Assembly (NCBI RefSeq): GCF_018977255.1
Contig: NW_024704750.1
Span: forward strand, 11,594,001 to 11,658,000
Reading direction: 5' to 3'
DNA length: 64,000 nt
Origin: Callorhinchus milii
Taxonomy: Eukaryota
Part shown: one piece after another, positions 8,564-9,799 of the stretch
How positions within the stretch are numbered: the stretch's first letter is position 1
How the letters are laid out: each line of letters opens with the position of its first letter
Translations under genes and position numbers: made by a program
The notes under the pieces: generated by a model
What the model saw: only the letters and a program-made list of their open reading frames with translations
Told to the model about the DNA's origin: nothing
The model's database searches: none

Positions 8564-9799
8564 ATGTTGGACATGGGAGATAAGAAAGAAGTGAAAATGA
8601 TCCCCAAGTCATCGTTCAGCATAAACAGCCTGGTGCCCGAAGCGGTTCAGAGTGACAACCACCATCACCACCGATCTGCCCCCGACGATGAGGACAAAAA
8701 CCTTTTGCCAGCGGTGGAGTCGAAGTCTGAAAATGTTCCCAGCAAAACTGACAGCAGCTCCGGGGAGCAGCCCAGCGCGGAAGAGAAGGAGAAGCAGGAA
8801 GAGAAAAAGGCAGACGGTAAAGAAGGGGATGGTGGAAAGGAAGGAGAAAAGAAAAATGGCAAATATGAAAAGCCTCCGTTTAGTTATAACGCGCTGATCA
8901 TGATGGCCATCCGTCAGAGTCCAGAGAAACGATTGACATTGAATGGAATCTACGAATTCATCATGAAAAATTTCCCTTATTACAGAGAGAACAAACAGGG
9001 TTGGCAAAACTCTATTAGACACAACTTGAGTCTGAATAAATGTTTCGTGAAAGTTCCGAGGCATTACGATGATCCTGGGAAGGGGAACTACTGGATGTTG
9101 GATCCATCTAGTGATGATGTCTTTATAGGTGGCACTACGGGAAAACTCCGGAGGAGGTCCACAACATCAAGAGCAAAGTTAGCTTTCAAGCGAGGAGCGC
9201 GCCTCACTTCTACCGGACTGACATTTATGGATAGGGCAGGTTCCTTATATTGGCCTGTATCTCCATTCCTATCCCTCCATCATCCCCGGGCCAGCAGTGC
9301 CTTGAGTTATAATGGGACCACCTCAGCTTACCCGAGTCACCCGATGTCCTACAGCTCGGTGTTAACTCAGAACTCTCTGGCAAACAGCCACTCGTTTCCA
9401 ACTTCAAATGGGTTAAGTGTAGATAGACTTGTAAACGGAGAGATTCCTTATGCCACCCACCACCTAACGGCAGCAGCTGCCCTGGCTGCCTCGGTGCCAT
9501 GTGGTTTGTCTGTTCCTTGCTCAGGCACATATTCCTTAAACCCATGCTCAGTAAATCTTCTGGCAGGACAGACGAGTTATTTTTTCCCTCATGTTCCTCA
9601 CCCGTCAATGACTTCTCAAAGCAGCACTTCAATGTCGGCGAGGGCAGCGTCCTCCACATCTCCACAGGCGCCTTCAACTCTTCCCTGTGAGTCTCTAAGA
9701 CCCTCTTTGCCAAGTTTCTCCACAGGACTTTCTGGAGGGCTTTCTGATTACTTCACACATCAAACCCAGGGCTCCTCTTCAAACCCTCTAATACACTAA
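8564..9799 (+). CDS. FOXG1: Forkhead box protein G1 (BF-1), 411 aa, single coding exon
   Basis: ATG at 8564 gives [29 protein letters not shown], the diagnostic FOXG1 N-terminus with the eh1-like FSINSLV. It is followed by a short His run, the forkhead domain [30 protein letters not shown]...[20 protein letters not shown]...[10 protein letters not shown], and the FOXG1 C-terminus ...GSSSNPLIH*. The ORF-track start at 8303 is a TTG read across the N gap. Confidence 0.99.
8870..9157 (+). other. FOXG1: Forkhead (winged-helix) DNA-binding domain of FOXG1
   Basis: KPPFSY...GKLRRR; matches the human FOXG1 forkhead domain as I recall it. Followed by the RRRSTT basic/phosphorylation motif. Confidence 0.97.

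What the first reader, a model, noticed from the sequence alone, without database searches (positions are those of the whole stretch)
9683..9692. Consensus splice donor inside the 'intronless' FOXG1 CDS, exactly 37 codons before the stop
Seen: CCCT|GTGAGT (GT at 9687-9688) is spelled by the codons TGT GAG TCT (Cys-Glu-Ser). All three synonymous choices are the ones that build GTGAGT. Splicing here (phase 1) would remove the last 37 residues, CESLRP...NPLIH. Recalled, needs checking: human fetal-brain FOXG1 variants splice to downstream exons and lose the last 37 aa. Inference: the same donor in a probable cartilaginous fish would make alternative FOXG1 C-termini an ancestral gnathostome feature. 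A second donor-like CT|GTAAGT lies at 9821 in the 3'UTR.
Basis: partly seen in the sequence, partly recalled or inferred. Interest (0 to 1): 0.7.

Follow-up and report, generated by a model that had tools for sequence, protein, structure and literature searches.

The report
Old splice donor inside FOXG1's tail
The forebrain gene FOXG1 of this cartilaginous fish carries a splice-donor motif 37 codons before its stop, at the spot where mammalian FOXG1 records switch to other tails, but only the unspliced form was seen in fish transcripts, so it is likely a mostly idle site and not an ancient second protein form.

Summary
The motif is real: CCCT|GTGAGT, GT at 9687-9688, phase 1 in codon 375 of a 411-aa FOXG1. 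Alone it is unremarkable: 42% of synonymous shuffles give a GTRAGT somewhere in the CDS, 20% at this site. It matches a donor used elsewhere: 20 of 232 FOXG1 records (16 species: mammals, a bird, a turtle, one teleost) leave the protein exactly here, and published human frameshift stops imply the same TGT-GA. Against an ancestral isoform: the new tails are mostly unrelated between lineages; 47 of 208 full-length proteins have Cys-Asp, which cannot give +5 G; 0 of 18 named shark/ray proteins have another tail; contigs of 4 of 4 runs cross the site unspliced (contigs drop rare forms). Keeping the question open: a textbook-looking acceptor at 16576 and a conserved element at about 21.0-21.1 kb that is an exon of the downstream gene in mammalian models. 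Verdict: orthologue of a known minor read-through donor; use in this fish not shown.

The parts
8564..9799 (+). FOXG1 coding sequence, 411 aa, one open frame
   Evidence: Forkhead PF00250 aa 102-187
9684..9692 (+). Donor-like site CCT|GTGAGT (GT 9687-9688), phase 1 in Cys375
   Evidence: same break point in 20 of 232 protein records; U1 pairing -5.5 kcal/mol
9686..9799 (+). Last 37 codons and stop, lost if the donor is used; strongly conserved tail
   Evidence: last 30 aa on average 89% identical over 187 full-length proteins
9818..9826 (+). Second donor-like site ACT|GTAAGT in the 3'UTR
   Evidence: -5.4 kcal/mol; no listed difference in run X3 and no joint
10302..10309 (+). miR-9 seed-like site in the 3'UTR (seed recalled), removed by either splice
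   Evidence: Foxg1 is a miR-9 target in mouse per PMC3834235 passages
10683..10688 (+). AATAAA poly(A) signal ending the unspliced mRNA
   Evidence: contigs of three other species stop at 10691-10701
16516..16576 (+). Candidate 3' splice site: branch-like CTAAC (16516), long pyrimidine tract, CAG ending 16576; would give a 25-residue tail in phase 1; use not shown
21003..21110 (+). Conserved element, likely the orthologue of the Foxg1-bound element in a LINC01551 exon; ends in TAAACAAAC (21102-21110); frame bounded by stops here
   Evidence: tblastn with a bat model's tail 79% over 33 aa, E 1e-11; PMC8685624 passages; macaque models

Best explanation
This donor motif sits at the position where other vertebrates' FOXG1 records switch tails, and in this fish it is likely a mostly idle site, kept by the conserved Cys-Glu codons and slow silent change. 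Shown: motif, phase, same break point in 20 records, unspliced transcript form ending at the 10683 poly(A) signal. Inferred mechanism: the gene is normally cut and polyadenylated about 1 kb after the donor, so no acceptor is transcribed and the site is ignored; when polymerase reads through, U1 can use the site (moderate strength, +3 to +6 pairing making up for a poor exon side) and join it to whatever acceptor lies downstream. In mammals those are exons of the neighbouring lncRNA-type gene, which give lineage-specific tails and drop the 3'UTR. The product would be a minor read-through RNA, not a conserved second protein.
For: Chance of the motif is high given the protein (0.42 anywhere, 0.20 here). 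Only moderate U1 pairing (264 of 3544). 20 of 232 records break here, each continuing with a residue codable by a T-first codon or ending (background share 0.30), which fits phase 1. Their tails fall into about ten unrelated groups; only mouse/hamster/elephant and ruminant/pangolin/tiger share exons, and mouse-elephant identity is 45% against a near-invariant normal tail. Cys-Asp in 47 of 208 full-length proteins, in teleosts, several frogs and a lizard. 18 of 18 named shark/ray proteins have the normal tail. Contigs bridge the site unspliced in 4 of 4 runs, three of them on to 10691-10701. In PMC8609283 supplements the four listed mouse isoforms keep the whole 481-aa CDS, while human FOXG1_LINC01551 and mouse FOXG1_GM43517 are one transcript each.
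Against: TGT is kept (or implied) in this fish, an elasmobranch-like run, a teleost, turtle, bird and many mammalian orders, though records that use the site are selected for having it. The strongest acceptor-like site of the window lies 6.9 kb downstream on the same strand (1 of 1704 + strand YAG, 0 of 1667 - strand, 1 in 400 strand-kb of flanks; rule set after seeing the site). The conserved element that is exonic in mammalian models is also present downstream. Tissue and stage of the runs are unknown and contigs drop rare forms.
Confidence: 0.6

Rival explanations
1. A conserved regulatory splice: read-through transcripts are spliced from 9686 (or 9820) to the acceptor at 16576 and onward, swapping out the miRNA-controlled 3'UTR or sending the RNA to decay, to tune FOXG1 dose; the tail sequence itself would not matter.
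For: Same break point from teleost to mammals; motif unchanged in run X3; strong single-copy acceptor-like site (about 3% chance in 11.3 kb by the strict rule); downstream conserved element; miR-9-like site in the skipped part.
Against: Acceptor rule is post hoc; without the branch-point term 15 such sites occur in 400 strand-kb. Seven other GTRAGT sites lie between 12600 and 20855, four of them before 16576, and could feed it. Repeated Glu-to-Asp change. PMC8685624 found no transcript support for the element in mouse, chicken or zebrafish.
Confidence: 0.22
2. One reading: an ancestral alternative C-terminal FOXG1 protein isoform of jawed vertebrates.
For: Break point shared by 20 records; two exon groups recur within placentals.
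Against: No alternative tail has a coding match in the window or 200 kb of flanks; the one strong hit is bounded by stops here. Tails differ even within mammals. 0 of 18 named shark/ray proteins.
Confidence: 0.06
3. The site is never used outside some mammals; non-mammalian records are gene-predictor artefacts drawn to the only GTRAG of the CDS, and the DNA is kept by coding or another overlapping element.
For: Bird, turtle and teleost records are 'hypothetical' or genome-project models with unrelated tails; three other models break at earlier points; 4 of 4 runs show the unspliced form.
Against: Does not explain the strong downstream acceptor-like site; mammalian records recur on the same exons.
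Confidence: 0.12

Closest known systems
Human FOXG1 (FOXG1B) fetal-brain splice variants, Shoichet et al. 2005 (PMID 16133170; only its title seen, in reference lists; content recalled)
   Same: Same gene; by recall, variants that leave the coding exon near its 3' end for downstream exons. Human TGT-GA at codons 453-454 is implied by three +1 frameshift stops at codon 454.
   Different: No transcript with the junction is shown for this fish; the downstream exons are not conserved as coding sequence.
FOXG1-LINC01551 (human) and Foxg1-Gm43517 (mouse) read-through transcripts, PMC8609283 (section 14, passages, supplement rows)
   Same: Read-through from FOXG1 into the downstream lncRNA; the window holds the likely orthologue of an element lying in a LINC01551 exon.
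   Different: The tables I saw give no junction coordinates, so use of this donor is not shown there; figure not visible.
Mouse Q8C9D9/BAC31234.1 and RefSeq/Ensembl-type FOXG1 models of deer, tiger, goat, sheep, elephant
   Same: Break exactly after APSTLP, phase-1 compatible.
   Different: Mammal-specific tails; no such record among 18 named shark/ray proteins.
Latent (cryptic) 5' splice sites and composite terminal exons (internal donor versus proximal poly(A)), general knowledge
   Same: Donor inside a last exon, usable only if transcription passes the poly(A) site.
   Different: Here the whole CDS is one exon and the donor is inside coding sequence.

Membership tests
FOXG1 orthologue | Forkhead domain plus FOXG1-type C-terminal half | tested here: met
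   96% to shark/ray FOXG1, against 46% to the paralogue in the same genome
U2-type 5' splice site | GT with U1-complementary +3 to +6 | tested here: met
   (moderate strength, rough ranking)
U2-type 5' splice site | Used: junction reads begin after 9686 in this species or close relatives | tested here: inconclusive
   no joint or loose end in 4 runs, contigs only, laid on 9500-21000; rare forms are dropped
Orthologue of the mammalian FOXG1 internal donor | Same codon and phase as the mammalian break point | tested here: met
Conserved (selected) splice site | Synonymous positions fixed beyond background | tested here: inconclusive
   only one other species' difference list is likely complete; p about 0.7
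Conserved (selected) splice site | +5 G possible in all gnathostome lineages | tested here: not met
   Cys-Asp in 47 of 208 full-length proteins
Ancestral alternative C-terminal isoform | Homologous coding exon downstream in fish and mammals | tested here: not met
Ancestral alternative C-terminal isoform | Protein detected | not testable with these tools
   needs proteomics or ribosome profiling

The most novel reading that the evidence does not exclude
Since the jawed-vertebrate ancestor, FOXG1 read-through transcripts have been spliced from this in-CDS donor to a downstream acceptor (here 16576) on the way to the ultraconserved Foxg1-bound element, trading the last 37 residues and the miR-9-bearing 3'UTR for a fast-evolving exon: an old dose-control switch hidden in a gene taught as single-exon.
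Probability: 0.2. Interest if true: 0.65.

Novelty: new member of a known kind. Interest (0 to 1): 0.3.

Why it matters
FOXG1 is dosage-sensitive and is described as having one coding exon (PMC8780739, PMC5575846 passages). If the donor were used in cartilaginous fishes, the mammalian read-through variants would be over 400 million years old and likely regulatory, which bears on reading variants downstream of FOXG1. As it stands the result is modest: the site is old, its use in fish is unshown, and one RT-PCR (9686 to 16577) would test it.

Tried and rejected
Runs: no RNA holder listed on record; kinds are guesses. Of 23 listed runs 4 were laid (X1, X3, X6, X7), on 9500-21000 only; no joint, no loose end at 9686 or 9820, no cover of the sequence after 16576; this is no evidence of absence. 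Short matches near 16525-16562 in X1, X6, X7 lie on the pyrimidine run and were set aside as low-complexity. 87 of 127 difference rows were not shown, so changes private to X6 or X7 at the donor cannot be excluded. Metagenome scan for vertebrate FOXG1 DNA: 0 of 588 candidate stretches. Search with the mouse alternative tail found it only in elephant and (partly) hamster among the 120 of 139 hits listed. Papers not held: Shoichet 2005 and three PMC ids. Ten literature searches listed no paper on this donor in cartilaginous fishes; 'FOXG1' with 'last 37 amino acids' gave 0; subscription journals and preprint supplements are not covered. Earlier scan notes: none. Dinucleotide shuffles for the acceptor (1 of 300) destroy CT runs and were replaced by real flanks. 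An exitron-type acceptor inside the 3'UTR (AG at 10106) has no read support and was not pursued.

Full report
Observation. The window holds a 411-aa FOXG1 ORF at 8564-9799 (+). Bases 9683-9692 are CCCTGTGAGT; the GT is bases 2-3 of Cys375, so a splice would be phase 1 and remove 37 residues. It is the only GTRAG in the CDS, and ACT|GTAAGT follows at 9821. The protein is 96% identical to shark and ray FOXG1 over aa 230-411. The genome is 0.99 Gb and gave two FoxG-type matches, which fits the two genes reported for a chimaera in PMC10789856 (passages); so likely a holocephalan (inference).

Chance. In 20,000 synonymous shuffles a GTRAGT occurs somewhere in the CDS in 41.6% and at this site in 19.6%. 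Against the genome's own U1 5' end the site pairs at -5.5 kcal/mol; 264 of 3544 + strand GT sites do as well or better (register not fixed). It is a fair, not outstanding, donor with a poor exon side; such donors depend on +5 G (general knowledge).

The same position is used elsewhere. I collected 232 FOXG1-like proteins (only the best 120 of 172 and 120 of 139 hits, and at most 15 members per cluster, were listed; nine downstream-gene proteins were left out of the count). 208 end in the normal tail; 24 do not. Of these 24, 20 from 16 species leave the sequence exactly after APS(T/S)LP: elephant, two camels, mouse, flying fox, hamster (2), singing mouse, goat (2), sheep (2), deer, pangolin, tiger (2), titi monkey, song sparrow, green turtle and the teleost Dallia. 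18 continue with C, S, Y, L or W, all codable by a T-first codon (background 0.30), and two end there; this fits a phase-1 cut after the T of TGT. Three others break earlier and one differs only at its very end. That the mouse record is a full-length cDNA and that RefSeq isoform models rest on RNA-seq is recalled, not checked; several others are genome-project predictions. For human, three +1 duplications in PMC5575846 (passages; K287Qfs*168, E154Gfs*301, L325Ffs*130) all stop at codon 454; counted from the C-terminus on primate and other proteins, 453-454 are Cys-Glu, so the shifted stop is T+GA and human has TGT-GA. PMC8609283 (section 14, passages, supplement rows) lists one human FOXG1_LINC01551 and one mouse FOXG1_GM43517 transcript, without junction coordinates in the rows seen, while its four listed mouse Foxg1 isoforms keep the 481-aa CDS.

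But the alternative tails are not a conserved protein. They fall into about ten groups; only mouse/hamster/elephant (mouse-elephant 45% over 127 aa) and ruminant/pangolin/tiger recur. The normal last 30 residues average 89% identity over 187 proteins. None of 15 tails tested has a match in 200 kb of flanks; in the window there are two hits, both short. 47 of 208 full-length proteins have Cys-Asp (most teleosts listed, several frogs, a lizard), which cannot give +5 G; salmonids, Amia and Dallia relatives keep Glu. All 18 named shark and ray proteins have the normal tail (16 CES, 2 CEA).

Transcripts. Four of 23 listed runs were laid on 9500-21000: X1 (same species label as the best holders) and X3, X6, X7 (three other organisms whose residue changes match elasmobranch proteins). 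All are contigs and RNA is a guess, though three stop at 10691-10701, just after AATAAA at 10683. A single contig bridges the donor unspliced in 4 of 4 (depths 4.6, 17.7, 73, 163); no joints were listed. Contigs drop rare forms and tissue is unknown, so this shows the unspliced form, not the absence of a spliced one. The 40 difference rows shown appear to be all of X3's up to 10076 (inferred from their order and density): none falls in 9683-9702 or 9816-9829. But only 16 of 99 third positions differ, so two unchanged positions have p about 0.7. 87 rows were hidden.

What lies downstream. (a) A single-copy acceptor-like site: CTAAC at 16516, a long pyrimidine tract without AG, CAG ending 16576. 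By a rule set after seeing it, it is the only such site among 1704 + strand and 1667 - strand YAGs of the window, with 1 in 400 strand-kb of flanks, about 3% for 11.3 kb; without the branch term 15 in 400 kb. Joined in phase 1 it would add 25 residues. Four other GTRAGT sites lie between the 3'UTR and it, so it may serve a separate RNA or none. (b) The bat model's tail matches 21003-21101 at 79% over 33 aa, E 1e-11, in a frame bounded by stops here. Macaque models of the gene next to FOXG1 join this piece with the exon used by the ruminant/pangolin/tiger FOXG1 tails. TAAACAAAC follows at 21102-21110. PMC8685624 (passages) describes an element conserved to fish, with two AAAC repeats, in an alternative LINC01551 exon about 11 kb from the human start site (with PMC4522966), bound by Foxg1 in mouse and without transcript support in mouse, chicken or zebrafish.

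Mechanism. Most likely (0.6) the donor is idle because the poly(A) signal 1 kb on ends the transcript before any acceptor; read-through lets it join downstream acceptors, giving minor RNAs with lineage-specific tails and no FOXG1 3'UTR (which holds a miR-9-like site at 10302; seed recalled). Shown: motif, phase, shared break point, unspliced form. Inferred: competition with polyadenylation, low level of use, retention by coding constraint. Rivals: conserved regulatory splice (0.22), never used outside mammals (0.12), ancestral protein isoform (0.06).

Novelty. Read-through splicing out of FOXG1 is known in mammals. Ten searches (listings only unless cited above) listed nothing on this donor in cartilaginous fishes, but the library lacks most subscription papers, and by recall the 2005 paper already mentions similar transcripts in mouse and other vertebrates. 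New member of a known kind; interest 0.3, or 0.65 if the junction is found in chimaera and shark forebrain.

Noticed in passing
window 21003-21110: Conserved element, likely the fish orthologue of the Foxg1-bound autoregulatory site tied to familial strabismus in PMC8685624; keeps the doubled AAAC motif.
   Followed up: partly
window 16516-16576: Unusually complete 3' splice-site anatomy in single-copy DNA 6 kb after the FOXG1 poly(A) signal; may mark an unannotated downstream RNA.
   Followed up: partly
window 43130-43198: Weak match (48% over 23 aa, E 0.003) to the tail of a teleost FOXG1 model; contains a CCATGG-centred X-box-like motif (label recalled); possible conserved non-coding element.
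   Followed up: partly
window 9688-9690: The TGA inside the donor is an off-frame stop; in human it ends the +1 frameshift alleles seen in PMC5575846 (codon 454), so splicing here would remove that stop (inference).
   Followed up: partly
L002:772-1983 (G000:C3): Second FoxG gene, 403 aa with Forkhead domain, 46% identical over the C-terminal half; the matching place reads Ile-Ala-Asp-Ala and has no such donor.
   Followed up: partly
window 47596-51122: Two similar LINE reverse-transcriptase fragments; the first hits RVT_1.
   Followed up: no
window 9500-10700: Very slow divergence: three other cartilaginous-fish-like runs differ at only 81-87 places over about 1200 bases, 3'UTR included.
   Followed up: no
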